Below are positions 603-40,404 of a DNA stretch of 64,000 nucleotides, one piece after another. The position numbers and the translations under genes are program-made. The notes below the pieces were generated by a model, which worked only from the letters and a program-made list of their open reading frames with translations, ran no database searches and was not told the DNA's origin. Source of the DNA: Candidatus Anstonellales archaeon (GTDB lineage: Archaea > Micrarchaeota > Micrarchaeia > Anstonellales > J096); contig JAWACY010000001.1 in NCBI GenBank assembly GCA_038896535.1, positions 198,397 through 262,396 on the forward strand, read 5' to 3'. Positions within the stretch are counted from its first letter, which is position 1. Each line of letters starts with the position of its first letter.

Positions 603-1109
603 ATGGCAATAAAAAGCAGAGGCATTCCATCAAAAGAGGCTTTCTGGCTGCCAGCATTTTATAGCAATGATATAAGGCAGTTTCAAGATGAAAACGAGAA
701 TTTGACAAGGAGCATATGGAAGTTAGATGAAATATTGAATTTTATATTCCCAAGAAAATATCAAGAAACTTATTATAATGTTGCTTTAGCATTTATGAAT
801 TATCTTTTCTCTTTTTACGGCCATGTTGAATCAAAGCAGATAGCAGAATTTGTTAAGAACAATAAAATATCAAAAGCAACATTCTACAACAGGGTTTTAC
901 CAAGGTTAAAAAGGCTTGGGCTTATAAGAATAAGGAGAGAAACAGAATTAGGAGCAAATAAAAAGTATAGACGCATGAGGATAGAGATAAGCAAGACATT
1001 TGGCAATTACTTGTTAAAAATTGCGAATAGCTGGCTGGCTCATGTTGATGATATAAAAGAGCAAAGGCAAATGAATGCAAAAAAAGAACAAGCTGATCAG
1101 GGCCTGTAG
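603..1109 (+). CDS. Hypothetical protein, probably a winged-helix DNA-binding protein. I take the start at MAIKSRG; the last ~10 nt overlap tRNA-Val.
   Basis: Long ORF with an ATG at 603 immediately after the upstream stop. Basic residues and a plausible wHTH segment (ISKATFYNRVLPRLKRLGLIRI). No family recognised. Confidence 0.4.
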   Translation: MAIKSRGIPSKEAFWLPAFYSNDIRQFQDENENLTRSIWKLDEILNFIFPRKYQETYYNVALAFMNYLFSFYGHVESKQIAEFVKNNKISKATFYNRVLPRLKRLGLIRIRRETELGANKKYRRMRIEISKTFGNYLLKIANSWLAHVDDIKEQRQMNAKKEQADQGL

Positions 1110-1172
1110 TCGAGGGGCTAAGACGCCTCCTTCACACGGAGGAGATCCCAGGTTCAAATCCTGGCAGGCCCA
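1100..1172 (+). tRNA. tRNA-Val (anticodon CAC)
   Basis: Cloverleaf by eye: acceptor GGGCCTG/CAGGCCC, anticodon stem CCTCC/GGAGG with loop TTCACAC, T-arm CCAGG-TTCAAAT-CCTGG, discriminator A. Confidence 0.85.
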
Positions 1173-1174
1173 TA

Positions 1175-2062
1175 CTAAATTTTCTTTATTTTTGCTATGA
1201 AAAACCCCTCGCTATTAACATGCCATGGATATATCCTTTTCACATAATCACTGCATATAAATCCATGCTCCCCTTTTTCGCATTTTACTGGCAATGAAAA
1301 ATGCATTGGCTTGGCATTTTCCCTTTTCTCAATTAGAGAATCTATAACGCCCTCATTCTCTTCTGTTGTTATTGTGCATGTACTATAAACAAGCTCGCCA
1401 TTTGTTTTCAGCGCATCAAAACAGGATAATATCATTGCCTTTTGTATTCTTGCCATTGCCTTAACATGTCTTTCATTTGCCCTTCTTATTGCATAAAGAG
1501 AGCTGCCAAAACTTGAGCATGGCGCATCAAGTAATATATTATCAAAGTAATTATTGTTGAATGGCAAATGCCTCGAATCAGCTTTTATTATGCAAGTATT
1601 CATAACTCCAAGCCTGTCAAGGTTAGAAACAAGCAATGATATTCTTTCATAAGTTTTTTCTATTGAATATATGCCTGCCTTATTCTCCTTTATTGCAGCT
1701 ATTTGGCTTGTTTTGCTTCCTGGCGAAGATGCAGCATCAAGAAAAATTCCCATGTAATTATTAAATGCTAATACTGGCATCATTGAGCTGAAACTTTGTG
1801 GGTGTATGAAGCCAAGAAAATATGACAATGTTTTTCCTATTTTTTCCTTTCCTTTATACAAAAATCCATACTTATAAGATGTTTTTTCATAATCAAAATC
1901 TGCAATATCAAAAAATTCCTTTATACTCGTTTTTATTGTATTAACCCTAAAATATGTTCCCTGCTCTAACAATGAAGTTATAAAATGCACAGCATCAAAG
2001 CCAAACCTTTCTGCTAATGATGAGAAGAAATTACTAAATTTCAATTCTTTCAGATATTTCAC
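1175..2062 (-). CDS. NOL1/NOP2/Sun-family RNA cytosine-C5 methyltransferase (tRNA/rRNA m5C MTase)
   Basis: SAM-binding DAASSPGSKT, catalytic DAPCSSFG (motif IV Cys) and YSTCT (motif VI Cys), which are hallmarks of the NSUN/RsmB/Trm4 family. Confidence 0.85.
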   Translation of the reverse strand: MKYLKELKFSNFFSSLAERFGFDAVHFITSLLEQGTYFRVNTIKTSIKEFFDIADFDYEKTSYKYGFLYKGKEKIGKTLSYFLGFIHPQSFSSMMPVLAFNNYMGIFLDAASSPGSKTSQIAAIKENKAGIYSIEKTYERISLLVSNLDRLGVMNTCIIKADSRHLPFNNNYFDNILLDAPCSSFGSSLYAIRRANERHVKAMARIQKAMILSCFDALKTNGELVYSTCTITTEENEGVIDSLIEKRENAKPMHFSLPVKCEKGEHGFICSDYVKRIYPWHVNSEGFFIAKIKKI

Positions 2063-6694: not shown

Positions 6695-8896
6695 ATGGTA
6701 AGAAAAGAAGCAGTTGTAGAAGATGTAGTAAAAATAATGGAGAACCTTGATTTTGTTAGAAATATGGCAATAGTTGCGCATGTAGACCATGGAAAAACAA
6801 CTTTAAGTGATAGCCTTGTTGCTAGGTCAGGATTAATAAGCAAAGAACTTGCAGGGCAACAAAGAGTGCTTGATTATGACATACAAGAGCAGAAGAGGGG
6901 AATAACAATAAAAGCAGCAAATATAAGCTTAGGCTTTACTTATGAAGGCAAGGATTATTTAATAAACTTAATAGATACACCAGGCCATGTTGATTTTGGC
7001 GGGCATGTTACAAGAGCTATGCGTGCTGTTGATGGTGTTGTTCTTGTTGTAGATGCAGTTGAAGGCATTATGCCTCAAACAGAAACTGTTTTAAGACAGG
7101 CATTAAAAGAAAGAGCGAAGCCAGTGCTTTTCATAAATAAAGTTGATAGGCTTATAAATGAGCTTAAGCTCTCACAGCAGCAGATAATGGAGAAGCTTAT
7201 TAAGATCATTGCTGGAGTTAATAAAATAATAGAAGCAAACGCACCTGAACAATTTAAAAAAGATTGGCAAGTATCTGTTGAAAATGGCAAAGTTGCAATA
7301 GGATCAGCATTCAATAAATGGGCACTCAGCATTAATAGTATGAAGAAAACAGGCATAAATTTCTCAAAAGTTTATGAGCTGGTATCAAATAATAAAATGA
7401 GTGAATTGAGCGAACTTTCTCCTGTTGATGAAGTTGTGCTTGAAATGGCAGTTAAAAACTTGCCAAATCCAAAGCAAGCACAGGCATATAGAATTCCTGT
7501 TCTATGGCACGGAAACATTGAAAGCGATGAAGGAAAGGCAATGCTTTTATGTAATGCAAATGCTCCAACAATAGGTGTTGTTTTTGGAGTAGTCTATGAC
7601 GAACATGCTGGCGAGGTAGCTGTTGTAAGGCTTTTTTCTGGAACAATAAGGAAAGGAGATAATTTATATGTTGCATCAAAACTTGCTTATAATAGAGTGC
7701 AGCAGGTTGCTATTTATATGGGCCCAGATAGGATACAAGCTGAAAAAATAACCGCTGGCAATATAGGGGCTGTTGTTGGGCTTAAGGACGTTTATGTTGG
7801 AGAAACAATAAGTTCAATGCCTATAGAGCCATTTGAACAAATAAAGCATTATTCAGAACCAGTAGTTACAAAAAGCATAGAAGCGGCAAATCCGAAAGAT
7901 TTAGGAAAATTAATAGAAGTTTTAAGAGGACTTGCAAAAGAAGACCCAACATTAAGGGTAGAGCTAAATCAAGAGACAGGAGAACACTTAATAAGCGGTA
8001 TGGGAGAGTTACACTTAGAAATTATTGAATATAAAATAAGAGAAGAAAAAGGCGTTGCAATAAAAACAAGCCCGCCAATTGTTGTTTATAGAGAAACACT
8101 TGCCTCTAAAGAAGGGCCTGTAATAGAAGGAAAAAGTCCAAACAAGCATAACAAGCTTTATATAAAAGTTGAAAAACTTAATGATAATATTGTTAAGGCA
8201 CTTGATAATGCAGAAATCCCTGAAGGAAGAATAAAAGGAAAAGTTCCACAACAGCTTGTTGAAAAGCTTGTCTCTCTTGGCATGGACAGAGATGAAGCAA
8301 AAGGGCTTTGGGATGTTTATAATAAAAACTTTCTTATTGATGCAACAAAAGGAGTGCAATACTTAAATGAAGTGCAAGAACTTATAGTACAAGGTTTTGA
8401 AGAAGCAATGTCCAAAGGGCCTTTATCACAAGAAAAGGTTGCTGGCATAAAAGTTGTGCTTGTTGATGCAACCTTGCATGAAGATAATGTACACAGAGGG
8501 CCTGCACAAATATTACCAGCAGTAAAAAGGCCTATATATGCCTCAATGTTAAAGGCAAATGTACAATTGCTTGAACCAAAACAGAAAATATTAGTACAAG
8601 TCCCACAAGATTATGCTAGTGCCGTGCTTAATTTGATGAATGGGAAAAGGGCAAAACTATTATCTCTTGAACAGGAAGGAGATATGGCAACAATAAATGT
8701 TATTGTTCCAGTTGCAGAAACATTTGGCTTGAGCAATGAATTAAGAGGCGTTAGTCAAGGAAGAGCAATTTGGTATAGTGAATATTATGGGTATGAGCCA
8801 TTACCAAGAGAATTACAGGATAAAGTTGTTTATTCAATCAGAGATAGAAAAGGCCTGCCAAAAGAACCGCCAAAAGCAGAAGAATTTATGGAATGA
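6695..8896 (+). CDS. fusA: Elongation factor 2 (aEF-2)
   Basis: G-domain motifs AHVDHGKTTLSD, DTPGHVDF and NKVDR. Length 733 aa, with the C-terminal diphthamide-region architecture. Confidence 0.95.
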   Translation: MVRKEAVVEDVVKIMENLDFVRNMAIVAHVDHGKTTLSDSLVARSGLISKELAGQQRVLDYDIQEQKRGITIKAANISLGFTYEGKDYLINLIDTPGHVDFGGHVTRAMRAVDGVVLVVDAVEGIMPQTETVLRQALKERAKPVLFINKVDRLINELKLSQQQIMEKLIKIIAGVNKIIEANAPEQFKKDWQVSVENGKVAIGSAFNKWALSINSMKKTGINFSKVYELVSNNKMSELSELSPVDEVVLEMAVKNLPNPKQAQAYRIPVLWHGNIESDEGKAMLLCNANAPTIGVVFGVVYDEHAGEVAVVRLFSGTIRKGDNLYVASKLAYNRVQQVAIYMGPDRIQAEKITAGNIGAVVGLKDVYVGETISSMPIEPFEQIKHYSEPVVTKSIEAANPKDLGKLIEVLRGLAKEDPTLRVELNQETGEHLISGMGELHLEIIEYKIREEKGVAIKTSPPIVVYRETLASKEGPVIEGKSPNKHNKLYIKVEKLNDNIVKALDNAEIPEGRIKGKVPQQLVEKLVSLGMDRDEAKGLWDVYNKNFLIDATKGVQYLNEVQELIVQGFEEAMSKGPLSQEKVAGIKVVLVDATLHEDNVHRGPAQILPAVKRPIYASMLKANVQLLEPKQKILVQVPQDYASAVLNLMNGKRAKLLSLEQEGDMATINVIVPVAETFGLSNELRGVSQGRAIWYSEYYGYEPLPRELQDKVVYSIRDRKGLPKEPPKAEEFME

Positions 8897-8947
8897 TATT
8901 GAATAAAGACAAAAAATAAAAATAAATACATACATTTTTTATTTATA

Positions 8948-9032
8948 GCAGGGGTCGCCAAGCCTGGTCAACGGCGCAGGACTTAAGATCCTGTCCCATA
9001 TGGGTTCGTGGGTTCAAATCCCACCCCCTGCA
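8948..9032 (+). tRNA. tRNA-Leu (anticodon TAA), type II with a long variable arm
   Basis: Acceptor GCAGGGG/CCCCTGC, anticodon stem CAGGA/TCCTG with loop CTTAAGA, variable arm CCCAT..ATGGG, T-arm GTGGG-TTCAAAT-CCCAC, discriminator A. Confidence 0.85.
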
Positions 9033-9116
9033 CATATAAGCGAGTTAGGAGTTAGCCGATATAAGCAAAACCTTCGAGCGAAGCGAGAAGAGGATTTGAA
9101 GCCAAAGGGTTCAAAT

Positions 9117-9278
9117 GTAAAAAGGCAAATTAACTTATACACACGCCTTCTTACAATCATCCCGCCCCCATTATTCCCTGTGGTAAGAAGGCAAATTAAC
9201 TTATACACACGCCTTCTTACAATCATCCCGGTAAGAAGGCAAATTAACTTATATATGCGCCTTCTTACAATCTTCCAA
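9117..9278. repeat. Array of three ~48-nt hairpin repeat units (10-bp stem GTAAGAAGGC/GCCTTCTTAC, 18-nt loop) with a conserved 18-nt linker (CCCCCATTATTCCCTGTG) between units 1 and 2; downstream of tRNA-Leu
   Basis: The unit gtaagaaggcaaattaacttatacacacgccttcttacaatcatcccg is present three times (the first has one stem mismatch, gtaaaaaggc). A near-identical two-unit copy lies at 16391..16497, right after tRNA-Thr. Confidence 0.8.
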
Positions 9279-9472
9279 CCTCTATTATAAGCTTTGTTTG
9301 GTTTTGGTAATTGAATTTATATATAATATATGCCTTCTTGTCATTCACTAAATTAATCTAAGTTATGTCTTAATCATGTAATATTAAATCATGTGATATT
9401 GATAAGGGGCTGGAGTGTTATTAAACTAAGTATTGAACTAACTACAATATTACAATATAAACAAATTATAAT

Positions 9473-10201
9473 TTAGGGTTTTCGTTTTGATATTTTATAA
9501 AGCCCAGTTGCTATTACTGGCCCTATTAATAGCAAGAATGTATATAAATTGGCCCTTGATACAAATGATAGTAATATATCATTCTTGACATCATAAAATA
9601 CCTTTAATGCTTCTCCAACAAAATCTGGTGGGGCTTTAACTGATATTTCATTTGCTATACTTGAAGTAACATTATCAATTATTCCATTAATAATTAGGGT
9701 ATAAACAAACATCAATAAAATTGCTATGATGCCAAATAAAAGCATGCTTTCATTTCTTGCATAAACAAAAACAAAGAATACATAAGCAAGATATAAGACA
9801 ATTGTTATTCCATAAATTATGCCGAGCATTGGCTTTATATTTTCTATTATAGCATCTAAAGGTTTTAGTATTTCATTTGCAGCAAGTTTTGATATAACCT
9901 CTATTAAATCTGGTATTGTTTTTACGCTCCCATTTAAGACACTATCGCATGCTGGTTTTAGAAATTCTAATTCTTGTGGAAAGCTATTTTGTGCTTGGCA
10001 CACTGTTTTTACTTGATCAATGCTAATTTGGGAGGCATTAATTTTTGTGTAGTATATAAAGGAAAGCTCTGAATTTATTTTTTGTGCAAAAACAGCCTTT
10101 GTGTTTTCATACTCGCTTATGAATATAAAAAGGAATATTGAGAAAAACAGCAATAACAAAATTAATATTGATAATGGCACATACATTATTGTTTTTATCA
10201 T
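9473..10201 (-). CDS. Hypothetical integral membrane protein
   Basis: 242-aa ORF with N-terminal and several internal hydrophobic helices. Confidence 0.45.
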   Translation of the reverse strand: MIKTIMYVPLSILILLLLFFSIFLFIFISEYENTKAVFAQKINSELSFIYYTKINASQISIDQVKTVCQAQNSFPQELEFLKPACDSVLNGSVKTIPDLIEVISKLAANEILKPLDAIIENIKPMLGIIYGITIVLYLAYVFFVFVYARNESMLLFGIIAILLMFVYTLIINGIIDNVTSSIANEISVKAPPDFVGEALKVFYDVKNDILLSFVSRANLYTFLLLIGPVIATGLYKISKRKP

Positions 10202-15501: not shown

Positions 15502-16297
15502 TTTTTTCTACCCCTCTTATTATTCTATTAAGTTTTTTATATATGGCAGGAGATGAAACAAAAACATTGTTGTCTTTTTCATTAAACATACTTCTAATTT
15601 TGCATCCAGCATTTTTTGCTATTAATAAAGCAGCAGAAACATCCCAAGGCTTTACATCTATGCCAATAAAAGCATTAAATCTGCCAGAAGCAACATAACA
15701 TATTTCAAGTGCAGCACTACCAAATTTTCTTATATCCCTGGTTTTATATTTTAACACGCTTAATAAGTTTATGAACCTTCTTATACTTTTATCGTTATTA
15801 CTATGACATGTGCCAAGAAATGCCCTTTTTATTTCATCATTATATGATGGTTTTATTATTTTTCCATTCAAATATGAAAATCCATTGTTCTTTGCATAAA
15901 ACATCTCATTTAGTATTGGGTTATAAACAACTGCACATATTGTATCTTTTCTGTATTTAAGAGCAATTGAGACATTAAAAAATGGAACATGATGCACAAA
16001 ATTTGCTGTTCCGTCTAATGGGTCTATTACCCACAAATAATCCTTATCAATGTAATGAGCTCCAGATTCTTCTGCCAATATGCTATGCCTTGGAAAATAT
16101 TTTTTTATCTCTTTTTTTATTATCTGCTCAGATTCCTTATCCGCTTTTGTTACTATATCTCTTATGCCCTTTTCTTCTTCTTTTACATGCATGTCGAAAT
16201 ATTTCTTTAATAAATCCCCGGCCTTTCTTGCTATTATTTTAGCTCTTTCTAAATACTCCATATATGATAAATGAAAATGGTTTTTAAAATCTTTCAA
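15491..16297 (-). CDS. suhB: Inositol monophosphatase / fructose-1,6-bisphosphatase family protein
   Basis: Metal-binding motifs EE..GxxD and WVIDPLDGTANF, which are diagnostic of IMPase/FBPase IV. Confidence 0.85.
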   Translation of the reverse strand: MKDFKNHFHLSYMEYLERAKIIARKAGDLLKKYFDMHVKEEEKGIRDIVTKADKESEQIIKKEIKKYFPRHSILAEESGAHYIDKDYLWVIDPLDGTANFVHHVPFFNVSIALKYRKDTICAVVYNPILNEMFYAKNNGFSYLNGKIIKPSYNDEIKRAFLGTCHSNNDKSIRRFINLLSVLKYKTRDIRKFGSAALEICYVASGRFNAFIGIDVKPWDVSAALLIAKNAGCKIRSMFNEKDNNVFVSSPAIYKKLNRIIRGVEKNDK

Positions 16298-16315
16298 TGC
16301 AAAGAAATTTTATAT

Positions 16316-16388
16316 GCCTCAGTAGCTCAGCTGGAAGAGCGACCGCCTTGTAAGCGGTAGGTCGGGGGTTCAAATCCCTCCTGGGGCT
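16316..16388 (+). tRNA. tRNA-Thr (anticodon TGT)
   Basis: Acceptor GCCTCAG/CTGGGGC (one G-U pair), anticodon stem ACCGC/GCGGT with loop CTTGTAA, T-arm GGGGG-TTCAAAT-CCCTC, discriminator T. Confidence 0.85.
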
Positions 16389-16390
16389 CT

Positions 16391-16497
16391 GGGTAAGAAG
16401 GCAAATTAACTTATACACACGCCTTCTTACAAACATCCCGCCCCTATTATTCCCTGTGGTAAGAAGGCACTAACCCTATTACACACGCCTTCTTACA
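16391..16497. repeat. Second copy of the tRNA-flanking hairpin repeat element: two units separated by the conserved CCCCTATTATTCCCTGTG linker, starting 3 nt after tRNA-Thr
   Basis: gtaagaaggcaaattaacttatacacacgccttcttacaaacatcccg, then the linker, then gtaagaaggcactaaccctattacacacgccttcttacaaatatctg. It is near-identical to the 9117..9230 copy. Confidence 0.8.
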
Positions 16498-16551
16498 AAT
16501 ATCTGATTCATGTTATTGGATTCTTAAGTGAGGCAAAATCTTTATGGGCAG

Positions 16552-17697
16552 TTATTGTTCAATGTAAGATAAAAGGATAGTAGCACTAACTGCATCTGGT
16601 CCGTTATTTAATAAAATAATGAAATCATTGTTATTTAATTCACATATTGTAGTAAAATAAGCAGCATTTTTTATGCTACAATTTTTATAAACAAATACGC
16701 CTCTAGCACTTGTTTCTTTAAACTTCTCATAATTTTTTTCATCTAAAATGTATAATGTTATTGGTTTACTAGCATTTATTGATATTTTATAATTTCCATC
16801 TTCTGAAGAGCATTTTTTATAAGAATAATAATAAAAAGGCGGCATTAAAATTGTTTCATTAATATCATTTACATAAACTTGGTATGTTATTTTTTCATAC
16901 ATAATATCATTTGTATCATTGCTGTGCTCATACCCAAGTATATGCCCTATTTCATGTTTTGCAATTTTCTCTATTGTTTTTGGGCTATAAAATTGATAGC
17001 GGTCATAACATTTGTTGTCGCCCAATCCGATATCTATTAATACACCACCAACCTCTGCCTCCCCAATTTTTTCTTCTGATATTTCTTTGAACCACTTTAA
17101 AATTATTGTTTCATTATTTCTCTCATTTGTTTCATAAAAGCTTATGCCTGTTTTTGCGCTCCAATAATCAAATGCATTTTTTATAGCATTTTTGTATGAC
17201 TCCCTTAGATCATTAGAGAGTGATTGTGGTAAATCATTTATATAATATGATATTTTATCAAAAACAAGAACTGCAGTAGAATTTTCTAAAATTCCATTTT
17301 TACTTATACCAATTATTTTTATATTATAAAGCCCTGGTTCATATAAAATAAGTTTATCCCTTTCATCTTCTGGAAGTGTTAAATCTTTGTTTAAATTTAT
17401 TGTTCTGTTTTCTATTATTGAATGATCTTTCAACCTTTGTATTTCTATATAACATTTTATATTTTCATCTTGCATATCATAGCACGAGTATTCCAAATTT
17501 AGAAAGAGGGGCGGTTTACTTTCATTTTTCATTACTTTTATCCAAATAGCATTATATGAAATTGTCTTGTTTTCTTCATGCACAGCAGTTGTTTGTTCTT
17601 CATTAATATTTTTTTCTGTAACATTAGAAAAGCATCCAGAAAAAAATAAGCAAAAAGCAAAAATTATAAGGCATTTTTTCATAAATTCATTTATCAT
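16552..17697 (-). CDS. Secreted matrixin-like (metzincin, M10-like) zinc metallopeptidase, probable lipoprotein
   Basis: HEIGHILGYEHSNDTNDIMY matches the HExxHxxGxxH zinc site plus the Met-turn. N-terminal signal peptide with the lipobox-like FSGC. Confidence 0.7.
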   Translation of the reverse strand: MINEFMKKCLIIFAFCLFFSGCFSNVTEKNINEEQTTAVHEENKTISYNAIWIKVMKNESKPPLFLNLEYSCYDMQDENIKCYIEIQRLKDHSIIENRTINLNKDLTLPEDERDKLILYEPGLYNIKIIGISKNGILENSTAVLVFDKISYYINDLPQSLSNDLRESYKNAIKNAFDYWSAKTGISFYETNERNNETIILKWFKEISEEKIGEAEVGGVLIDIGLGDNKCYDRYQFYSPKTIEKIAKHEIGHILGYEHSNDTNDIMYEKITYQVYVNDINETILMPPFYYYSYKKCSSEDGNYKISINASKPITLYILDEKNYEKFKETSARGVFVYKNCSIKNAAYFTTICELNNNDFIILLNNGPDAVSATILLSYIEQ

Positions 17698-25021: not shown

Positions 25022-27289
25022 TCACGCCAACATATTCTTTGCTTGTTCAGCATTTTTGCTTAATTCTTCAATAACTTCTTTTTTAGCTATTATTAATATT
25101 GTTTTATCACCAACCTTTTTTATAACCATGCTATTGCTTAATCCCTCTGCATTTAATGCCTCTGTTCCAATAAAGTCAATTTCTTCTTTTATCAACGCAG
25201 CAAGATTTTTCATTAAACTTTTCTTTTCTTGCTTTATATAAGATGCAATAATGTTCTTATCTTTTAAAACTATGATTGCTGAAACCTTATCTTTTTTATC
25301 TTTGTACAAATGCTCTATATAGATATCTGCTTTCTGCTCTTCTGTCAATTTTCTTTTTACAAGCATTACTCCCTCTATTGAACTGAATTTTTCTGGATGT
25401 TCTTTAATGTATTCTTTTGCTGCCCAGAAGCGCCATTCTATTGGTATAGCAACAAGCGCATCAAGAGGGAGTTGATCAACTTTTTCTATTTTTTCATTTA
25501 TATAATCAAGCCATTCTCTTCTTTTTTGTTTTGCCAGTTCGACCTTTTGACTTACAGATGCTGATATGCTATTAACAGCATTTATATAACCGACTATTTT
25601 GTCTCTAACCTCTTTTTGGTTTGGATTGCTGTAAATTTCTTTCTTTATTGCATCAATTGGTATTGATAACAATTGCGACATTTGCTGGCCAACATCCATC
25701 TCCATTTCTGCAGCCTTATCAAGTGCTTTTTTTGTTTTTTCTATATTATCACTCAATGTTTGCCATAGCTTCAAGTTTTTATTCTGGGTTGGAGCCTCAA
25801 CTGCTTCGTCATACTCTTTTCCAGAGAGAAGCCTTTTAATCCTATCTATAAATGACAGACTGAGGAATAATAGGCCTGCAGCATAACCAGCAGTATTAAT
25901 TATTATCAATGGATCTTGCGTTACCAATGTTATTAAACTATTTAATGATAATTTTTGCATAGAAATTGGCGACATTATATAAATATCAAGAACATAGCTG
26001 GCAATTAATAATATTGAACCAATAGCCATATCAGTTGTCCATGTTAATGAAGCAAAACCAAAAGCCCTTCTTAATGAGTATATGATTGGTTTTCTTTGCC
26101 TTATAAGAGATATGAGCCTTAATATATAAGCAGCAAGTTCAAGTATAATAATTAGTATAAATGCAAAAATCCATATAATGATGCCAAGACTTAACTTTGT
26201 CATGTTTGTTGCCTGAAATGCTGGCATGTAAATTGTGTTAAGATTATTAACAAGTCCTTCAATATTTGATATGTCTATAAAAACAAGCCTTACTTCTGCT
26301 TTAACGTCATTCCATATCTCATATTGTATTATATCCCTTGATAATGCTCCAATAGCATAATATAAAATATAAATTTTTGCGTCGTTTGTAAACCTTATGT
26401 CGCTATAATCAAGCCTAATTGGATTTGTCCCTGCTCTCCTTATTGCAGTGCTTAAGACATAATCTTTTATGTTTGAATCAATTCTTGGGTCTATTGTTTC
26501 TCTCATACTAACTTCTATTGTATTAGTCCCAATATTGCTGCCAGTTATAGAAGTGATGACAAATGCTTTATGCCTTACTACATTTGCTGTGCCAACATAT
26601 TTTGTTAAATTGCCAAGTTCATATGAGAATGAGCAGAATTTTGCATCTTTTATTAATGGATGCTCTTCCATCTCTTTCAATATAAACTGTAATGTTGTGA
26701 TCCTTGAGGAGATATCTTTTGATGTATCGCCCGGCTTTAATGCCTGGCTTAATAGAAGCAATGCTCTTAATTGCTCATCTCTCTGCCTGAGCAAGTTTGA
26801 GTAATCATATAACATTAATCCATATTTTTGTTCTTTACATGCTTTAGAAAGGCATGAGTTCTCGCAACTTTTTTCATCATTACATAATAATGGCTCAAAT
26901 AAAGATTTGCATGAAACATCCTCCTTTATTAAGTTTTCATTTATTGCTATTATCTCATTTTTTAGTTTTGCTGTCTCGTTTTCATCTATCAATATGCTTT
27001 TAGGATTAACTTCTATAACATCCGGGTATAGATAAATTTTCCTGTTAATGAATAATGTTGAATTACCGGCATTTGTTTTTGTTTCTGTATAATATATATT
27101 GTATATATCTGGCACTCCATTTTCATCAATATCTGATGATGAAATGCTTGATAATGGCATATTTTCTTGTAAGTTTTTTTCAACTCTAAATATGCAACCA
27201 TTAAGAAATAACAAAAATGCTAATAAAAATAAAAACAAAAACCTTGCTTTATTATCAATGAAATGCATAAATTGTTTTTTGTGTAGCAT
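25022..27289 (-). CDS. Large hypothetical membrane protein (755 aa): N-terminal signal anchor, ~330-aa ectodomain, central polytopic TM block, ~270-aa C-terminal cytoplasmic domain
   Basis: Hydrophobic segments near residues 15-35 and 365-470. No catalytic motif recognised. Confidence 0.5.
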   Translation of the reverse strand: MLHKKQFMHFIDNKARFLFLFLLAFLLFLNGCIFRVEKNLQENMPLSSISSSDIDENGVPDIYNIYYTETKTNAGNSTLFINRKIYLYPDVIEVNPKSILIDENETAKLKNEIIAINENLIKEDVSCKSLFEPLLCNDEKSCENSCLSKACKEQKYGLMLYDYSNLLRQRDEQLRALLLLSQALKPGDTSKDISSRITTLQFILKEMEEHPLIKDAKFCSFSYELGNLTKYVGTANVVRHKAFVITSITGSNIGTNTIEVSMRETIDPRIDSNIKDYVLSTAIRRAGTNPIRLDYSDIRFTNDAKIYILYYAIGALSRDIIQYEIWNDVKAEVRLVFIDISNIEGLVNNLNTIYMPAFQATNMTKLSLGIIIWIFAFILIIILELAAYILRLISLIRQRKPIIYSLRRAFGFASLTWTTDMAIGSILLIASYVLDIYIMSPISMQKLSLNSLITLVTQDPLIIINTAGYAAGLLFLSLSFIDRIKRLLSGKEYDEAVEAPTQNKNLKLWQTLSDNIEKTKKALDKAAEMEMDVGQQMSQLLSIPIDAIKKEIYSNPNQKEVRDKIVGYINAVNSISASVSQKVELAKQKRREWLDYINEKIEKVDQLPLDALVAIPIEWRFWAAKEYIKEHPEKFSSIEGVMLVKRKLTEEQKADIYIEHLYKDKKDKVSAIIVLKDKNIIASYIKQEKKSLMKNLAALIKEEIDFIGTEALNAEGLSNSMVIKKVGDKTILIIAKKEVIEELSKNAEQAKNMLA

Positions 27290-35481: not shown

Positions 35482-38400
35482 ATGGTTGGTCATATGGGGA
35501 ATAAAAATTTTATGTATGGCATAAAACATGGCATAAAGCATTGCCCAAATATTTTTTTAATTGCGCTTTTGATTATAATATTAACAAATATTTCGTTTTC
35601 ACTTAACTTCATATCAACAATAGAAAAAAAAGGCAATGAAATAGAGATAACATTTTATCCATATAAAATTCAAGAACTTCCATATCAATCAAACCCAAGG
35701 CAGACAACAATACAGATATTGCCATACAACCAAGCTGATATAGAAAGCTTTACTTATTATGTTGAAATAATAAATGCTTCTGGCTCAGTAATATCTTCTT
35801 TTTCAGATTCACAACTCAAAACTTCTATGAAAAGGGGCACAATAAATTTTAATAATGCAAACATACAGGGAGTTATATTTACAATACCTAGCCCTGCTTT
35901 AAATCAGGAATGTGCAATTGTAAAATTAAGTATAGCCGGCATAATAGAAGAAAACAATGCCAGAAATTCATTTGATGAAAAAAGACAAGAAGTGATATGT
36001 GAAAAATCATACCCCCTGGCTTTTAGACAAGGCCTTTCTGATTTATTAACTGCTATTAATTCAAATGCTGGAGTGTGTTACTCAATATTATTCATTTTTG
36101 TTTTTGCTGCTGCTGCATATTATGCTAGATTTGGAAGTACAATAATATCATTATATGATGTTGTAAGTCCGAAAGTATTCAAACTTAAAGAGCCGATATA
36201 TTCTTTAATGAGTGTTTCTCCAAGAGGAGAAATAGCAAAAAAGCTTGAAGAAGCAGATAGAAAAGTAAGAGCCGCTCTATATAAAGATTATGAAGAAAAG
36301 CTCAAACAAGCAGGGATAAATGAAGGAAAGCAATTAAGTTCTTCTGTATTTGAGAAACATCTATTAACTGATAAAAAGTATAAGGAGATAATTGAAGAGA
36401 TAAAAAAGAACATTGATACAGGAGAAAAAATCATAGAACGGTCTAATTTTTCAAAAGAGGAAAAAAAACTCCTCCGAACATATTTAATATTATTGATGCT
36501 TGAACAGATAAAAAGTCCATTTGCTCCAGCAAGCGGCGTAGCAAGGCCAGAAGCAAAAAGAGTTGCGGCTGTTTTGAGGCCTTTTAAATATGTTGGCAAA
36601 ATTAAAGAGGTTAAGTATATTGGAAAACCATTAAATTGGCTTGCTTTGCCGTTGGTGTTAACATCAAAACAAATAGCATCATCTGCTTATACTATTTCAA
36701 AAGCGCCAAGAGCAGTTATAGAATATTTTGGCTTGGGTGAAGCTGCCAGACAAGCAAGAAAAGCAATTATTGAGAAAGAAATAGAGCCAAAAGGCGAAAA
36801 AGAGAAAAGAATGCGCAATATCATAGAACTATTAGCAGGCCCAGAAAAGAAGCATAACATCATTGACATAGCTGTATTTAACAAAATGCCTTCAGAAATA
36901 GAGGATCATTTAAGAAGAGGGCTTGCTGTTCAAGCTATTGAAATAGCCCTTGATAAAAACAGAGAGTTAAAGACAGCATTTAGAGAAATGCAAGAAGAAC
37001 TTGCTAATTTTAAAAGCAGCAAGGACATAACAAACAAAATAAATTCAATAATTGAAAGATTTGGGTCAGATAAAGATAGGGAAAATTTAAAGCTTATAAT
37101 TGAGATCATTAAGGCAGAAAACAGTTATGGAATGCTTGAACTGTTTAATAAATTTTTAGATAAGAATAATATAGATGATCAGATAAAGGGAAAGATAAAT
37201 GACATAATAAAATTGAAGGACAAAGGGATTACAAATATTGAATTAAACATTTTATTTAGCGATTTTATATCAAGAGATTTGCACGATTTTTCTGTTAGGC
37301 AAAGGCTTATAGGACCATATGGAGATGAATCAAGAGATAAAAATAAAAAAACTAAAGACGCCCTTTTTTATCTATTTTTGAACCACCTATATAATGAGTT
37401 TATATTTTTATTTGATAAGCAGCAGTTATCAAACCTTGATGAAGGAGCATTTATTTTATGCGCAAAAATAGCAGCACGCATGGCTTCATATGAAGCTATA
37501 AAGGCGATATACGGGCATGCAGAGAAAGCAGAAATAATTGCTAATTTCTATTCAGCATTAAAAGGAAAGCTTGAAAAAGGGGATAAAGAGCAAAAAGCAC
37601 TGGCAGCATTAATTGACATTGAAATAATTAAGAGAAGAGCAGAGCAAGCAGAAGAGCATTATAAAAACATAGTTGATTATGCAGATAGGATTAAAGAGAG
37701 ACTTAATATTGATATTAAGGGAAAGCTTTATGATTACATTTTTTCACATGAAAAAGAATTTTCTATTCCAGATGAAATGGCTAGGCCTGCATATATAGGG
37801 TTCAGGCCACAAAAAATAACAAATGAGGATATAGAATTCATTAATAAAGCAAGCATTAATATGCTTCCAGTTTATTTAACTGAAAAATACTACAAATTTA
37901 ACATATCGCTTTTAAATGAAATTACAAATTCATTAAGAGGGGCAATATCAGAAGTCGGCGTTTTTAAAGAAAGGTTTTCATCTAATGTATTGAGTTTAAC
38001 ACTCCAGACATTACTTGAAGAAAGGTCTGACAGGCTTTTGGGCTCTGGCATAGATGAGTTAAGAATGAAAAAAGACCTTTTATTGGGCTACATAATTTAT
38101 ATAAGCGAGAGGTATGACATTAGAGATAATGAAGGCATATATAAAAAACTGGAGGAAATTTCTAAAAACGGAATATCTGAAACAGAACTTGAAATAGCAA
38201 GTAAAAGAGGATTTTTGATAGGAAAAACAAAAGACAATGAAGTAATATTAATACCAACAGCAAGCGTTATGAACAAAGTTTTAATATCAGAGAAAGAAAA
38301 GAACAGTTTTCTTGGTTTTAGTGATAACACTAAAGAGAGGATAATGTCGAAATTAGAAAGGATAAAAGAAAATCCATTACTGTTCCTTGAGAGATTATCA

Positions 38401-40404
38401 ACATTTTATATAACCATAAGCGGAATTGAAGAGTATTATATACTAACAAATGATGGCGGTGTGCCAAAGTTAAATAGTTTAAAGCCTTCAGAAGCTTATA
38501 TAGACAGTGAAACAAAGGAAAGAATAGAGAATGTATTAAAAGCATTAGAGCAAAAATTAGGGCAAAAAATGCAATTAACTGATTTATTCAATGCAGATGT
38601 TAATAAATTTAATGATTATATAAAACAATTACAGAAAAATGGCTTATCAGAACTAGACATTTTCAAGCTTGCTTATTCATATTATAAGCATAAAAAAGAA
38701 ATTAATGAAAGGATATATCTTGGCGATATAGATGTTTTTAGAAATCCACAAGATTATAATTTAATAATAGGAACAAAAGAAGAAATAAAACAAAAGCTCA
38801 TTCAACTAAAACAGCTCTCTCCTTTGTTTGAGGCTCTATCACCCGGAGCAGAAAATATAGAAAGTATAAAAGCAACAAAGTTCAAATTCAAAAATGCAAT
38901 GCAGGAACTTTTTGAAGGTTTCATAAATACTCCTTTATCTATTTATCAAGCCCTACATCCATTTGAGGGCATAGAATATATGCCTTATATTAACGCCATG
39001 AACTTTTACAGAGTTGAAGAAATAAAGGAATTGGCAAAGCGTACTGGAGATATAGATAAGGAAAATTTCAAAGAAGCAATAAAGCTTTATGAAGAGCATT
39101 TTAATTCAATGGGTTTCTTCCTTGACAGGAGTGCAAATAATGTTGTAGCTTCATATTTAGATGATGAGCATACAAAATATGCAATAGCCAAACATTATAG
39201 AGGAAGCATATTTGTTCCAGCAGGATTTTTAACTGGAAAAGAAGGAGTTATAAATATAAATAAATCAATGTATATAGATGCTCCACTTTTGGGGCTTTAT
39301 TCCCCAATATTCTCTATAGCAACAAGATTAGCAGAACCAAAGATAAAATTACTTGCTTTAGTAAATCAAGCGCTTTATAGGCCTAGATATTATAATACAG
39401 GTTATGATATATCTCATGATTATGACGAAAATCTGCGTGAATACTTAGAGAAAAAATATAATATGAGAGAACAGGAAATTAAATTTTTGGGCCATATAAG
39501 AAATGTTTCTGGTAATTATTTTAATTATACAGCAGAAACAACTGCTATAAGGCATGCAGCAGCACTAAGACATGCAATATCACTTGGAGCTGGCTATTCA
39601 GTTCCTCTTGCCACAGCTTTATTTGGGGCTATGTTTGGGCCAGTAGGTTTAATGTTAACTGAAAGCGCAAGGTTAATGACTTCTTCATTTTATGGCACTA
39701 AATATAGCTATCTTGATAAATTTTTAATGAGGTTAAACAAAGATGAATTAAATTCATACATAACATTGAATGACCTTTATTATAGAGCAGCATTGCATCA
39801 AGAACAATTGCAATGGTATAAAAGAGGCATAGCTTCTGCTTATGGGCCGATAGGAGCAGTTTTAGGTTATGGTTACTACTCATATATGACAGGCCAGCTA
39901 AGGCCAGAACCAGCACTCATAAGGAGCTATGCCAGATGGATGCAAAGATATGAGAATAAGCCATTTGATATAAATGCATATCAAATAGCATTAAATCTTG
40001 GCAATTACAGGCTTGCTGATACTGATATGCTTGAAGCAGCTGAAAAAACAGCAGCAATTAAAGAATGGGGGAAGCTTGAATGGAATAAACTTGCTTATAC
40101 ATTTATTTTTCCTTCATTAATAGTGAATTTTGCAATTGAAAACATGGCACATTATGGAAAAGGCCTATATAAAGAAGGAAAAGCAAGAGGCTTAAAAGCT
40201 GCTGGTAAGAAAGTAGCTAAGGACATATCCGCTGTTTCAGCTACAACATTATTATTATATCTAAGTCCAGCAGCTGCTGTTGTTGTCCCCTCATATATAT
40301 TAAAACATTCTTTGGCAAGCATTAGAGCAATATGTCCAAATTGTAAGAGAGAAAGGCAAAAAAATGTCGAATGTCCATATTGTGGTTATGTAGGATTTGT
40401 TTAA
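35482..40404 (+). CDS. Giant hypothetical protein (1640 aa): N-terminal signal anchor, very large mostly alpha-helical body, C-terminal cluster of TM helices and a terminal CxxC..CxxC zinc ribbon
   Basis: Single uninterrupted ORF. N-terminal hydrophobic IFLIALLIIILTNISF. C-terminal hydrophobic segments from ~residue 1300, ending CPNCKRERQKNVECPYCGYVGFV. Confidence 0.6.
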   Translation: MVGHMGNKNFMYGIKHGIKHCPNIFLIALLIIILTNISFSLNFISTIEKKGNEIEITFYPYKIQELPYQSNPRQTTIQILPYNQADIESFTYYVEIINASGSVISSFSDSQLKTSMKRGTINFNNANIQGVIFTIPSPALNQECAIVKLSIAGIIEENNARNSFDEKRQEVICEKSYPLAFRQGLSDLLTAINSNAGVCYSILFIFVFAAAAYYARFGSTIISLYDVVSPKVFKLKEPIYSLMSVSPRGEIAKKLEEADRKVRAALYKDYEEKLKQAGINEGKQLSSSVFEKHLLTDKKYKEIIEEIKKNIDTGEKIIERSNFSKEEKKLLRTYLILLMLEQIKSPFAPASGVARPEAKRVAAVLRPFKYVGKIKEVKYIGKPLNWLALPLVLTSKQIASSAYTISKAPRAVIEYFGLGEAARQARKAIIEKEIEPKGEKEKRMRNIIELLAGPEKKHNIIDIAVFNKMPSEIEDHLRRGLAVQAIEIALDKNRELKTAFREMQEELANFKSSKDITNKINSIIERFGSDKDRENLKLIIEIIKAENSYGMLELFNKFLDKNNIDDQIKGKINDIIKLKDKGITNIELNILFSDFISRDLHDFSVRQRLIGPYGDESRDKNKKTKDALFYLFLNHLYNEFIFLFDKQQLSNLDEGAFILCAKIAARMASYEAIKAIYGHAEKAEIIANFYSALKGKLEKGDKEQKALAALIDIEIIKRRAEQAEEHYKNIVDYADRIKERLNIDIKGKLYDYIFSHEKEFSIPDEMARPAYIGFRPQKITNEDIEFINKASINMLPVYLTEKYYKFNISLLNEITNSLRGAISEVGVFKERFSSNVLSLTLQTLLEERSDRLLGSGIDELRMKKDLLLGYIIYISERYDIRDNEGIYKKLEEISKNGISETELEIASKRGFLIGKTKDNEVILIPTASVMNKVLISEKEKNSFLGFSDNTKERIMSKLERIKENPLLFLERLSTFYITISGIEEYYILTNDGGVPKLNSLKPSEAYIDSETKERIENVLKALEQKLGQKMQLTDLFNADVNKFNDYIKQLQKNGLSELDIFKLAYSYYKHKKEINERIYLGDIDVFRNPQDYNLIIGTKEEIKQKLIQLKQLSPLFEALSPGAENIESIKATKFKFKNAMQELFEGFINTPLSIYQALHPFEGIEYMPYINAMNFYRVEEIKELAKRTGDIDKENFKEAIKLYEEHFNSMGFFLDRSANNVVASYLDDEHTKYAIAKHYRGSIFVPAGFLTGKEGVININKSMYIDAPLLGLYSPIFSIATRLAEPKIKLLALVNQALYRPRYYNTGYDISHDYDENLREYLEKKYNMREQEIKFLGHIRNVSGNYFNYTAETTAIRHAAALRHAISLGAGYSVPLATALFGAMFGPVGLMLTESARLMTSSFYGTKYSYLDKFLMRLNKDELNSYITLNDLYYRAALHQEQLQWYKRGIASAYGPIGAVLGYGYYSYMTGQLRPEPALIRSYARWMQRYENKPFDINAYQIALNLGNYRLADTDMLEAAEKTAAIKEWGKLEWNKLAYTFIFPSLIVNFAIENMAHYGKGLYKEGKARGLKAAGKKVAKDISAVSATTLLLYLSPAAAVVVPSYILKHSLASIRAICPNCKRERQKNVECPYCGYVGFV

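What the first reader, a model, noticed from the sequence alone, without database searches (positions are those of the whole stretch)
9117..9278. Dispersed hairpin-repeat element (10-bp stem, 18-nt loop, conserved linker) sitting 3' of tRNA-Leu
Three tandem ~48-nt units each fold into a perfect or near-perfect hairpin (GTAAGAAGGC ... GCCTTCTTAC) followed by a conserved tail (aatcatcccg). Units 1 and 2 are separated by an 18-nt linker, CCCCCATTATTCCCTGTG, that is itself conserved at the second locus at 16391. The element is not CRISPR-like (too few units, irregular spacing). It could be a MITE-like mobile repeat, a tRNA 3'-processing or terminator module, a small structured RNA, or an integration (att) scar.
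Basis: seen in the sequence. Interest (0 to 1): 0.55.

Follow-up and report, generated by a model that had tools for sequence, protein, structure and literature searches.

The report
Hairpin repeats trailing two archaeal tRNAs
A 38-base perfect hairpin sequence is repeated five times directly behind two tRNA genes of an uncultured DPANN (Micrarchaeota/Anstonellales-like) archaeon; it is real and found only in this lineage, and is most likely a small palindromic repeat element lodged in tRNA 3' ends rather than a new kind of system.

Summary
GTAAGAAGGC-N18-GCCTTCTTAC occurs five times in the window, against 0 expected by chance. Three copies follow tRNA-Leu(UAA) and two follow tRNA-Thr(UGU). 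A 111-nt hairpin-linker-hairpin block is shared by both loci at 88% identity. Two independent assemblies carry it.

- **Known families:** no Rfam family matches. No plasmid, phage or viral contig matches. Exact-stem scans of genome and metagenome collections gave only single bacterial chance hairpins.
- **Closest relative:** it has the same tRNA-Thr followed directly by a T-run and no hairpins.
- **Left junctions:** array 1 begins inside the T-loop of a duplicated tRNA-Leu 3' fragment. Array 2 begins 4 nt after tRNA-Thr.
- **Context:** both arrays lie at synteny breakpoints beside lineage-restricted genes.
- **Sequence constraint:** the stem arms are far better conserved than loops and tails (1/80 vs 20/112 differences, p=1e-4). 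There is no compensatory change, so RNA structure has no covariation support.
- **Transcription:** no T-tract separates either tRNA from its array, so co-transcription is likely.
- **Mobility genes:** no integrase, transposase, RT or cas gene was found among the 56 window ORFs scanned.

Best reading (0.4): a lineage-specific REP/MITE-like palindromic element inserted at tRNA 3' ends, amplified in tandem and copied between the two loci. Function is unproven. Interest is modest.

The parts
8948..9033 (+). tRNA-Leu (anticodon UAA), intact, no encoded CCA
   Evidence: ARAGORN; Rfam RF00005 53.9 bits
9034..9109 (+). Conserved tRNA-Leu trailer. Segment B' (9071-9109) holds a small hairpin CTTC..GAAG with loop GAGCGAAGCGA. 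It also holds an antisense T-arm piece GGATTTGAAGCCA (9092-9104), which is 12/13 complementary to the tRNA T arm at 9009-9021.
   Evidence: Homologous to L129 3298-3337 and partly to L133. The stem differs between window and L129 (CTTC/GAAG vs TCCAC/GTGGA) while the loop is kept.
9107..9116 (+). Truncated second copy of the tRNA-Leu T-arm/T-loop (GGGTTCAAAT). In relatives this copy continues as CCCACCCCCTGCA. Here hairpin unit 1 starts immediately after it.
   Evidence: D5 (10/10, spacing 97); alignment A2
9117..9164 (+). Unit 1: hairpin 9117-9154 (one A.C mismatch) plus tail AATCATCCCG
9165..9182 (+). 18-nt linker CCCCCATTATTCCCTGTG. Together with the tail it aligns weakly, in register, to the tRNA-Leu 3' end CAAATCCCACCCCC (shuffle p about 0.05).
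9183..9230 (+). Unit 2: perfect hairpin 9183-9220 plus tail AATCATCCCG
9231..9278 (+). Unit 3: perfect hairpin 9231-9268 (loop differs at 3 positions) plus tail AATCTTCCAA. The sequence that follows, up to 9292, aligns to the tRNA-Leu 3' end plus its flank (p about 0.03).
9291..9345 (+). T-rich stretch GCTTTGTTTGGTTTTGG (9291-9307), the first oligo-T after tRNA-Leu. It overlaps a possible decayed fourth unit (9306-9324 is 79% identical to the loop start; 9326-9339 is 86% identical to the loop end plus right arm).
   Evidence: (D2, D3)
9473..10201 (-). Convergent 242-aa membrane protein. It belongs to a rare family, with 8 hits among 1.84 billion cluster representatives. Its homolog in the relative is not next to a tRNA.
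16316..16389 (+). tRNA-Thr (anticodon UGU)
16393..16440 (+). Unit 4: perfect hairpin 16393-16430, identical to unit 2, plus tail AAACATCCCG. It starts 4 nt after the tRNA-Thr gene.
16441..16458 (+). Linker CCCCTATTATTCCCTGTG (1 mismatch to the locus 1 linker)
16459..16506 (+). Unit 5: perfect hairpin 16459-16496. Its loop is diverged (ACTAACCCTATTACACAC, 8/18 different, length kept) and its tail is diverged.
16552..17697 (-). Convergent matrixin (M10) metalloprotease. The word-seeded search of 5.8 billion clustered proteins returned no hit other than itself.

Best explanation
The unit is a 38-bp palindromic DNA repeat: 10-bp inverted termini GTAAGAAGGC/GCCTTCTTAC around an 18-bp core. It behaves like a small non-autonomous repeat element of the REP/MITE kind that has settled in tRNA 3' ends of one Micrarchaeota (Anstonellales-like) lineage.

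Proposed history (inferred):
1. One copy landed in the T-loop of a spare tRNA-Leu 3' fragment that this clade carries about 97 nt behind tRNA-Leu.
2. Hairpin plus pieces of that fragment were amplified head-to-tail by slippage or unequal recombination. This gave 3 intact units and perhaps 1 decayed unit.
3. A two-hairpin block, whose outer ends are again the same 10-bp inverted termini, was copied to the position 4 nt behind tRNA-Thr.

Shown here: the repeat itself, its absence from the nearest relative, its junctions at tRNA sequence, and the sequence-level conservation of the arms.

Inferred consequence: no oligo-T lies between either tRNA and its array, so the arrays are probably transcribed as tRNA 3' trailers. 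Each unit would fold into a stable 10-bp hairpin and be released by tRNase Z cleavage. There it may act as a 3'-end barrier or insulator between the tRNA and the convergent gene.

The arms are invariant while loops and tails drift. This points to recognition of the arm sequence by a trans-acting protein (a transposase, recombinase or other binding protein) encoded outside the window.
For: - **Real repeat:** 5 copies against 0 expected, a 111-nt block shared by both loci, identical in a second assembly, and short-read contigs break in it.
- **Lineage-specific gain:** relative R (EF-2 89% identical) has tRNA-Thr followed at once by TGTTTTTCTTATTTTTGC and a convergent ORF, with no hairpin. Its tRNA-Leu locus has the duplicated 3' fragment but no hairpin. 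The covariance model finds no copy in 66 kb of relatives' loci. Exact-stem scans of genome, metagenome and viral collections give only unrelated single bacterial hairpins.
- **Junctions at tRNA sequence:** array 1 replaces CCCACCCCCTGCA right after TTCAAAT of the duplicated fragment. Array 2 starts 4 nt after tRNA-Thr.
- **Leu-derived tails:** tail+linker and the post-array sequence align in register to the tRNA-Leu 3' end and flank (p about 0.05 and 0.03). Locus 2 carries the same tail+linker as locus 1, which suggests copying from locus 1 to locus 2; its own alignment to the tRNA-Leu 3' end is only p about 0.11.
- **Breakpoint context:** both arrays sit at synteny breakpoints next to lineage-restricted genes.
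- **Arm conservation:** arms show 1/80 differences against 20/112 for non-arm positions, Fisher p=1e-4. Unit 5 has 0/20 against 13/28.
- **Co-transcription:** there is no T-run between tRNA and array, whereas T-runs follow most of the other tRNAs immediately. Predicted hairpins dominate the fold of both trailers (z -4.7 and -3.0).
Against: - Only two loci are known. No dispersed copies at non-tRNA sites have been seen.
- There is no target-site duplication. Every unit is followed by AA[AT], whatever the left flank.
- No transposase, integrase or RAYT gene was found among the 56 window ORFs scanned.
- At 38 bp the unit is shorter than described MITEs.
- Units are head-to-tail, which is unusual for REP clusters (PMC3733652).
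- The tail-to-tRNA-Leu similarity is only marginally significant.
- Arm identity could also reflect recent duplication plus gene conversion.
- Transcription is inferred, not observed.
Confidence: 0.4

Rival explanations
1. A functional tRNA-trailer RNA module. The hairpins are selected RNA structures co-transcribed with tRNA-Leu and tRNA-Thr. They would act as a terminator or roadblock, as a 3'-exonuclease barrier or processing signal, or as small hairpin RNAs released by tRNase Z that are bound by a specific protein or guide through their 18-nt loops.
For: - No oligo-T lies between the tRNAs and the arrays, and the first T-rich tract lies just after array 1.
- The predicted hairpins are stable.
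- Both arrays lie between a tRNA and a convergent gene.
- Loop length stays at exactly 18 nt in unit 5 although 8 of its 18 positions differ.
- Precedents exist: a palindrome about 10 bp downstream of roughly half the tRNA genes in M. kandleri (PMC5217627), and a dicistronic tRNA-C/D sRNA in N. equitans (PMC3491384).
- L133 also has a run of different hairpins behind its tRNA-Leu locus.
Against: - Only 2 of 7 tRNAs in the window carry the element. The orthologous tRNA-Thr and tRNA-Leu of the closest relative lack it, so it is not needed for tRNA maturation.
- Covariation is zero, and the single stem change is uncompensated.
- No Rfam family matches.
- There is no C/D box pair, K-turn or pseudouridylation pocket.
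- No complement of the loop occurs in the window.
- No hairpin requirement for archaeal transcription termination is known to me (own knowledge).
Confidence: 0.25
2. A remnant of a tRNA-targeting integrative element (plasmid or provirus). The hairpin units would be recombinase or accessory-protein binding sites from the arm of an att site, left behind after the element was lost. The adjacent orphan genes would be surviving cargo.
For: - Both arrays abut tRNA 3' sequence.
- Locus 1 carries a direct repeat of the tRNA-Leu 3' part (GGGTTCAAAT; the full 57-nt and 23-nt repeats are seen in relatives L129 and L133), which is the classical attL/attR signature.
- In relatives, 9-bp inverted repeats with a 7-nt spacer lie next to that fragment. 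To my knowledge this resembles tyrosine-recombinase core-site geometry.
- Gene order downstream of both tRNAs differs between relatives.
- The neighbouring M10 protease has no homolog elsewhere.
Against: - No integrase or other mobile-element gene was found among the 56 window ORFs scanned.
- No second copy of the tRNA-Thr 3' end, and no full tRNA-Leu 3' end, occurs anywhere in the window.
- The interval between the tRNA-Leu copies is only about 97 nt.
- A 10-bp inverted repeat with an 18-bp (or 10/28-bp) spacer is not, to my knowledge, the usual core-site geometry of tyrosine recombinases.
- Viral contigs carry neither the hairpin, nor the linker, nor either tRNA 3' end. There are no plasmid or phage hits.
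Confidence: 0.15
3. An array of double-stranded DNA binding sites for a dimeric protein. Each site would be two 10-bp half-sites 28 bp apart centre to centre. It could serve as an operator flanking a TATA-like core (TTATACAC / TTATATAT in the loop), or as a partition, origin or topology site.
For: - Arm sequence is invariant while the spacer drifts, yet spacer length stays at 18.
- The loops are AT-rich with TATA-like motifs (a sigma-70-like match in each unit illustrates the same motif).
- The repeats are tandem, as iterons and operators often are.
Against: - No gene is positioned to be regulated, since both downstream genes converge on the arrays.
- No orc1/cdc6, par or plasmid replication gene lies nearby.
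- TATA-like strings are common in a genome of 32% G+C.
- The half-site does not recur in other intergenic regions of the window.
Confidence: 0.08
4. A degenerate or orphan CRISPR-like mini-array.
For: Short repeats that contain a palindrome, arranged in tandem.
Against: - The 'spacers' are themselves repeated: the same 10-nt tail and the same 18-nt linker appear at both loci.
- Spacing is irregular (66 and 48 nt).
- A 10-bp stem with an 18-nt loop is, to my knowledge, unlike known CRISPR repeats.
- No cas gene was found among the 56 window ORFs scanned.
Confidence: 0.02

Closest known systems
REP / BIME elements of bacteria (GTAG- and CGTC-tagged palindromic repeats; PMC3733652, PMC2817692)
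   Same: Both are short (20-40 bp) intergenic palindromes. Both lie downstream of genes and between convergent genes, are often clustered in tandem together with flanking DNA, are species-specific, and are probably transcribed as RNA hairpins.
   Different: - Here the GTAA start is part of the stem, not an unpaired GTAG tag.
- Units are strictly head-to-tail, whereas REP clusters favour head-to-head or tail-to-tail arrangements.
- Only 5 copies at 2 loci are known.
- No RAYT gene has been seen.
- The host is an archaeon.
- Both loci are tRNA 3' flanks.
MITEs, including archaeal ones (Sulfolobus SM elements and haloarchaeal PATEs; recalled from my own knowledge)
   Same: Both have terminal inverted repeats and no coding capacity, vary in presence between close relatives, and sit at rearrangement-prone sites. 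The two-hairpin composite keeps the same outer termini as the single unit.
   Different: At 38 bp the unit is far shorter than described MITEs. There is no target-site duplication, no dispersed copies are known, and no IS with matching termini is known. It forms tandem arrays.
[quoted passage not shown]
   Same: A lineage-specific palindrome placed just 3' of archaeal tRNA genes, with unknown function. The authors suggested it may signal tRNA 3'-end maturation.
   Different: The M. kandleri motif is a single short palindrome present at about half of all tRNA genes. Here there are 10-bp arms with an 18-nt loop in tandem arrays, at 2 of 7 tRNAs, and one array lies 83 nt from the tRNA.
Dicistronic tRNA-small RNA genes (tRNA-Val/C/D box sRNA8 in Nanoarchaeum equitans; PMC3491384)
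   Same: A structured RNA lies immediately downstream of a tRNA in a DPANN archaeon. It would use the tRNA promoter and be released by RNase Z.
   Different: There are no C/D or C'/D' boxes, no K-turn, no H/ACA pocket and no Rfam hit. The same sequence is repeated in tandem.
attL/attR scars of tRNA-integrating archaeal elements (SSV-type and pTN3-type integrases; recalled from my own knowledge)
   Same: The position is at the tRNA 3' end, a duplicated tRNA 3' fragment is present at locus 1, synteny breaks there, and orphan genes lie beside the arrays.
   Different: There is no integrase and no element body. There is no duplicated tRNA-Thr fragment. Hairpin arrays are not a described feature of these att sites.

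Membership tests
REP (GTAG/CGTC super-families) | Unpaired GTAG or CGTC tetranucleotide at one end of the stem-loop | tested here: not met
   The units start with GTAAG, and GTAA pairs with TTAC of the right arm. There is no CGTC. Criterion taken from PMC3733652.
REP (GTAG/CGTC super-families) | Tens to thousands of dispersed extragenic copies | tested here: inconclusive
   There are 5 copies at 2 loci in 64 kb. The rest of the genome could not be read. The genome-contig scan found no archaeal copy, but I could not verify whether this genome is in that collection.
REP (GTAG/CGTC super-families) | Associated RAYT (IS200-like Y1 transposase) gene | tested here: not met
   No Y1 transposase was found among the 56 window ORFs scanned with Pfam. 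This applies to the window only.
MITE | Terminal inverted repeats | tested here: met
   The 10/10 inverted termini GTAAGAAGGC / GCCTTCTTAC are present on single units and on the hairpin-linker-hairpin composite.
MITE | Target-site duplication flanking each insertion | tested here: not met
   Left flanks are AAAT, GTG, CCG, TGG and GTG. Right flanks are always AA[AT]. AAT..AAT at unit 1 is not specific to that unit.
MITE | Presence/absence polymorphism with an empty site in relatives | tested here: met
   tRNA-Thr of relative R is followed directly by a T-run, with no hairpin. The tRNA-Leu fragment in L129 is uninterrupted.
MITE | Cognate autonomous IS with the same termini | not testable with these tools
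None is present in the window.
CRISPR array | Identical repeats separated by unique spacers of similar length, usually with cas genes | tested here: not met
   Inter-repeat segments are themselves repeated and measure 10 or 28 nt. No cas domain was found among the 56 window ORFs scanned.
tRNA-integrating element att site | Direct repeat of the tRNA 3' part bounding an element that encodes an integrase | tested here: not met
   Only a 10-nt GGGTTCAAAT repeat is present, 97 nt from tRNA-Leu. There is no repeat of the tRNA-Thr 3' end and no integrase.
Box C/D or H/ACA guide sRNA | C (RUGAUGA) and D (CUGA) boxes with a K-turn, or a lower stem, pocket, upper stem with K-turn and an ACA box | tested here: not met
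   No box pair is present on either strand of the units (sequence). The 18-nt loop cannot form an upper stem. Rfam E-value search gave only chance-level hits.
Any Rfam family | Score at or above the family's gathering threshold | tested here: not met
   Only the 7 tRNAs pass the threshold. The best other hit in 8850-9650 scores 24.7 bits against a 65.7-bit cutoff.
M. kandleri-type tRNA-downstream palindrome | Palindrome at a fixed short distance behind a large fraction of tRNA genes | tested here: not met
   Distances are 4 nt at tRNA-Thr and 83 nt at tRNA-Leu. Only 2 of 7 tRNAs carry it.

The most novel reading that the evidence does not exclude
The 38-bp hairpin is an active miniature element, or a protein-bound RNA/DNA module, that specifically targets the 3' foot of tRNA structures. 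At locus 1 it sits at the T-loop of a tRNA-Leu fragment, and at locus 2 at the acceptor end of tRNA-Thr. It would exploit tRNA promoters for expression. That would make it the smallest tRNA-targeting mobile element described in archaea, mobilised by an unidentified DPANN enzyme that reads the invariant 10-nt arms.
Probability: 0.12. Interest if true: 0.65.

Novelty: new variant of a known kind. Interest (0 to 1): 0.35.

Why it matters
As far as I know, repeat elements are rarely described in the small genomes of DPANN archaea, and the literature searches here turned up none.

If the element really targets tRNA 3' ends, it would mark a mobilising or binding protein still to be found. It would also explain why tRNA flanks are rearrangement breakpoints in these genomes.

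If it is only a local duplication, it is an ordinary lineage-specific repeat. Its practical importance is then limited to assembly, since it breaks short-read contigs, and to strain typing.

The conserved tRNA-Leu trailer next to it is seen in three lineages. It consists of an antisense T-arm piece plus a second copy of the tRNA 3' part. This may be the more interesting object for tRNA biology.

Tried and rejected
**Exact-stem scans.** Scans of genome contigs, metagenome contigs and viral contigs returned only single, unrelated bacterial hairpins with different loops and tails. They give no information on relatives.

**Rfam.** Both the gathering-threshold and E-value searches found nothing beyond the tRNAs.

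**Plasmid and phage blastn.** No match.

**Viral scans.**
- Linker: none.
- tRNA-Leu and tRNA-Thr 3' ends: none.
- 15-mer AGGATTTGAAGCCAA: more than 120 hits, which I took to be chance matches to a 15-mer and did not inspect.
- 242-aa protein: no viral relative.

**Covariance model of the unit.** No diverged copies in the window or in relatives. The 18-bit hit at 57873-57917 is an unrelated small hairpin.

**Tests that came back negative.**
- Two flanking (-) genes being related, as transposase or integrase copies would be: no similarity.
- Loop as an antisense guide: no complement in the window.
- Unit derived from one of the window's tRNAs: not significant. The only signal is a 10-nt match to the tRNA-Phe end, probably chance.
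- H/ACA reading ('ACA' after each stem): rejected, because there is no pocket, upper stem or K-turn.

**Locus L139.** It looked like a shorter, hairpin-free allele. It is an assembly chimera that switches into GC-rich bacterial DNA inside the tRNA-Thr T-loop.

**Bacterial promoter/terminator scan.** Not informative for an archaeon.

**Arrays as direct repeats bounding a 7.1-kb mobile segment.** Rejected, because the segment holds housekeeping genes (aIF-2B, AMP phosphorylase-like, diphthamide synthase, IMPase, tRNA-Thr). The relative also shows additional breakpoints without hairpins.

Full report
**1. Observation**

Reading 8700-9600 and 16100-16800 shows the sequence as described. The pattern GTAAGAAGGC-N18-GCCTTCTTAC, with up to 3 mismatches, matches five times: 9117, 9183, 9231, 16393 and 16459, all on the + strand. 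None of 100 dinucleotide-preserving shuffles gave a match.

Four stems are perfect. Unit 1 carries G5->A, which gives an A.C mismatch. Spacing is 66 and 48 nt at locus 1 and 66 nt at locus 2. A 111-nt hairpin-linker-hairpin block is shared at 88% identity. The 18-nt linker occurs only at these two places.

ARAGORN and Rfam place tRNA-Leu(UAA) at 8948-9033 and tRNA-Thr(UGU) at 16316-16389. Array 1 therefore starts 83 nt after tRNA-Leu (9034-9116), and array 2 starts 4 nt after tRNA-Thr.

The same sequence is present in NCBI GCA_038896675.1 (L064, L137). Two short-read Logan contigs end inside the arrays. So the repeat is real and not an assembly artefact.

A covariance model of the unit, run with filters off, finds no other copy in the 64 kb. 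A decayed fourth unit may follow array 1 at about 9299-9345.

**2. Organism and context**

The window has 32% G+C. It encodes archaeal EF-2, aIF-2B, tRNA-splicing endonuclease, Pus10, MCM, TFB, TFE and Alba.

The closest EF-2 and IMPase homologs are annotated as Micrarchaeota, Anstonellales or Bilamarchaeaceae. The source is a 419-kb contig of a 'Ca. Anstonellales archaeon'.

None of the 56 ORFs scanned with Pfam is an integrase, transposase, reverse transcriptase or Cas protein.

Both arrays lie between a tRNA (+) and a convergent (-) gene:
- a 242-aa membrane protein of a rare family (8 hits among 1.84 billion representatives);
- an M10 metalloprotease for which the word-seeded search of 5.8 billion clustered proteins returned no hit but itself.

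The two proteins are unrelated to each other.

**3. Comparison with relatives**

The closest relative available is R, from JGI sample 3300044959. Its EF-2 is 89% identical and its IMPase 62% identical.

In R, tRNA-Thr(UGU) is followed immediately by TGTTTTTCTTATTTTTGC and a convergent RsmB-like ORF. There is no hairpin.

R also has tRNA-Leu(UAA) behind EF-2. There the tRNA is followed by 36 nt, then a 40-nt segment B, then a perfect second copy of the tRNA 3' part from the T-loop onward. This forms a 57-nt direct repeat with 96-nt spacing, and there are no hairpins.

A more distant relative, L133 (EF-2 78% identical), shows the same plan with 104-nt spacing.

In the window, segment B is conserved (9071-9109) and is followed by GGGTTCAAAT (9107-9116, spacing 97). 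Where the relatives continue with CCCACCCCCTGCA, hairpin unit 1 begins instead (alignment A2). Array 1 therefore starts inside the T-loop of a duplicated tRNA-Leu 3' fragment.

Tail plus linker (CAATCATCCCGCCCCC) and the sequence after unit 3 (AATCTTCCAACCTCT..TTATAAGC) align in register to the missing part of that fragment and its flank. Shuffle p is about 0.05 and 0.03.

This suggests that one hairpin interrupted the fragment, and that hairpin plus fragment pieces were then duplicated in tandem. Locus 2 carries the same tail and linker as locus 1, which suggests it was copied from locus 1. This step is weakly supported (p about 0.11).

Gene order between the window and R is heavily shuffled. 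Both arrays are at breakpoints, but other breakpoints (about 6204/6392 and 12214/12228) have no hairpins. The model finds no diverged copy in 66 kb of relatives' DNA.

**4. Searches elsewhere**

- Exact-stem scans of 596 Gb of genomes, of the metagenome collection and of viral contigs returned only single bacterial hairpins with unrelated loops and tails.
- The linker and both tRNA 3' ends are absent from viral contigs.
- blastn against plasmids and phages gave nothing.
- Rfam gave only the tRNAs.

The element is therefore private to this lineage as far as public data reach. Its genome-wide copy number could not be measured, because the rest of the source genome is not readable with these tools.

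**5. Constraints within the repeat**

Relative to unit 2, the 20 arm positions show 1 difference in 80 comparisons. The 28 loop and tail positions show 20 in 112 (Fisher p=1e-4). Unit 5 alone has 0/20 against 13/28.

Loop length stays at 18 nt in unit 5 although 8 of its 18 positions differ. No base pair shows a compensatory or even a wobble change.

So there is no covariation evidence for an RNA structure. The arms look constrained as sequence, either through protein recognition or through homogenisation, and not merely as a stem.

Both trailers fold into the expected hairpins: -73 kcal/mol with z -4.7, and -31.9 kcal/mol with z -3.0. Because the arms are palindromic, the opposite strand and arm-to-next-arm pairings are equally possible.

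**6. Transcription (inferred)**

tRNA-Val and tRNA-Arg in the window, and tRNA-Thr in R, are followed at once by T-runs. T-runs follow within about 20 nt of tRNA-Gly and tRNA-Asn, while tRNA-Phe has none.

tRNA-Leu and tRNA-Thr here have no T-run before the arrays. The first T-rich tract, GCTTTGTTTGGTTTTGG (9291-9307), follows array 1.

The arrays are therefore probably part of the tRNA primary transcripts and would be released by tRNase Z. This was not tested.

**7. Interpretation**

The best-supported reading (0.4) is a lineage-specific palindromic repeat element of the REP/MITE kind. It entered tRNA 3' sequence, was amplified head-to-tail and was copied between two tRNA flanks. It now rides in tRNA trailers.

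It fails the defining tests of each named family:
- GTAG/CGTC REPs: no unpaired tag, head-to-tail arrangement, few copies (PMC3733652).
- Classical MITEs: no target-site duplication and no known parent IS.
- CRISPR, guide sRNAs and integrase att sites.

I therefore describe it as a new variant of a known kind, not as a member of any named family.

Rival readings are:
- a selected tRNA-trailer RNA module (0.25). Precedents are the M. kandleri tRNA-downstream palindrome (PMC5217627) and the N. equitans tRNA-sRNA dicistron (PMC3491384);
- a remnant of a tRNA-integrating element (0.15);
- a duplex protein-binding array (0.08);
- a CRISPR-like array (0.02).

**8. Verdict**

The finding is real, and its tRNA association is unlikely to be chance, since both loci fall among the 7 tRNA flanks of the window. 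However, it consists of five copies in one uncultured lineage, with no associated machinery and no evidence of function.

Interest is modest (0.35). It would rise if a genome-wide scan or transcript data showed tRNA-targeted spread or a discrete RNA product.

Noticed in passing
window 9009-9116; L129 3238-3393; L133 5896-6024: Three Micrarchaeota lineages share a conserved tRNA-Leu trailer. It has an antisense copy of the T arm (12/13, 12/13 and 12/12 complementary), followed at +96 to +104 nt from the original by a second, direct copy of the tRNA 3' part from the T-loop to the discriminator. That copy is 57/57 identical in L129, 22/23 in L133, and truncated by the hairpin array in the window. 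It could be a recurrent integration scar or a functional alternative-pairing device. It remains unexplained.
   Followed up: partly
L133 5819-5920 and 6025-6131: The tRNA-Leu(CAA) behind EF-2 in GCA_003694965.1 appears to carry an intron after the anticodon, and ARAGORN missed the gene. The second 3' fragment is followed by a run of different GC-containing hairpins (CCGCCTT..AAGGCGG; CAAACTTTT..AAAAGTTTG; GCTTTTTA.TAAAAAGC) up to the contig end.
   Followed up: no
window 16552-17697 (-): A matrixin (Peptidase_M10) protein of 381 aa. The word-seeded search of 5.8 billion clustered proteins returned no homolog at E<=1e-5 other than its own copy. It is a lineage-restricted gene sitting directly beside hairpin array 2.
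   Followed up: partly
L139 (Logan SRR27730022 contig), positions about 500-520: This contig is an assembly chimera. It switches from the archaeal tRNA-Thr into GC-rich bacterial coding DNA exactly within the T-loop/T-stem (GGTTCAAATCCCTC|ACCCGG). It is a reminder that conserved tRNA k-mers join unrelated genomes in short-read assemblies.
   Followed up: yes
window 1100-2044 vs L134 5295-6231: An RsmB-like methyltransferase gene converges on tRNA-Val in the window, but on tRNA-Thr in the relative. Several synteny breakpoints between the two genomes fall at tRNA 3' ends, so tRNA flanks act as rearrangement hot spots in this clade.
   Followed up: partly
window 35482-40404 (+), 25022-27289 (-), 45065-47233 (+): Three large ORFs of 1640, 755 and 722 aa have no Pfam match at E<=0.001.
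   Followed up: no
window 9130-9157, 9196-9223, 9244-9271: Each hairpin unit contains TTAACT-16 nt-TACAAT, a 9/12 match to a bacterial sigma-70 promoter, and a TATA-like TTATACAC / TTATATAT in its loop. In a genome of 32% G+C this is probably compositional. It was not tested as an archaeal promoter.
   Followed up: no
protein P0071 (EF-2 homolog, 1249 aa): One Micrarchaeota EF-2 homolog is 1249 aa long and carries additional precomputed Pfam domains (PF14528, PF14890), which I believe are intein/homing-endonuclease families. EF-2 would then be interrupted by an intein in that lineage.
   Followed up: no
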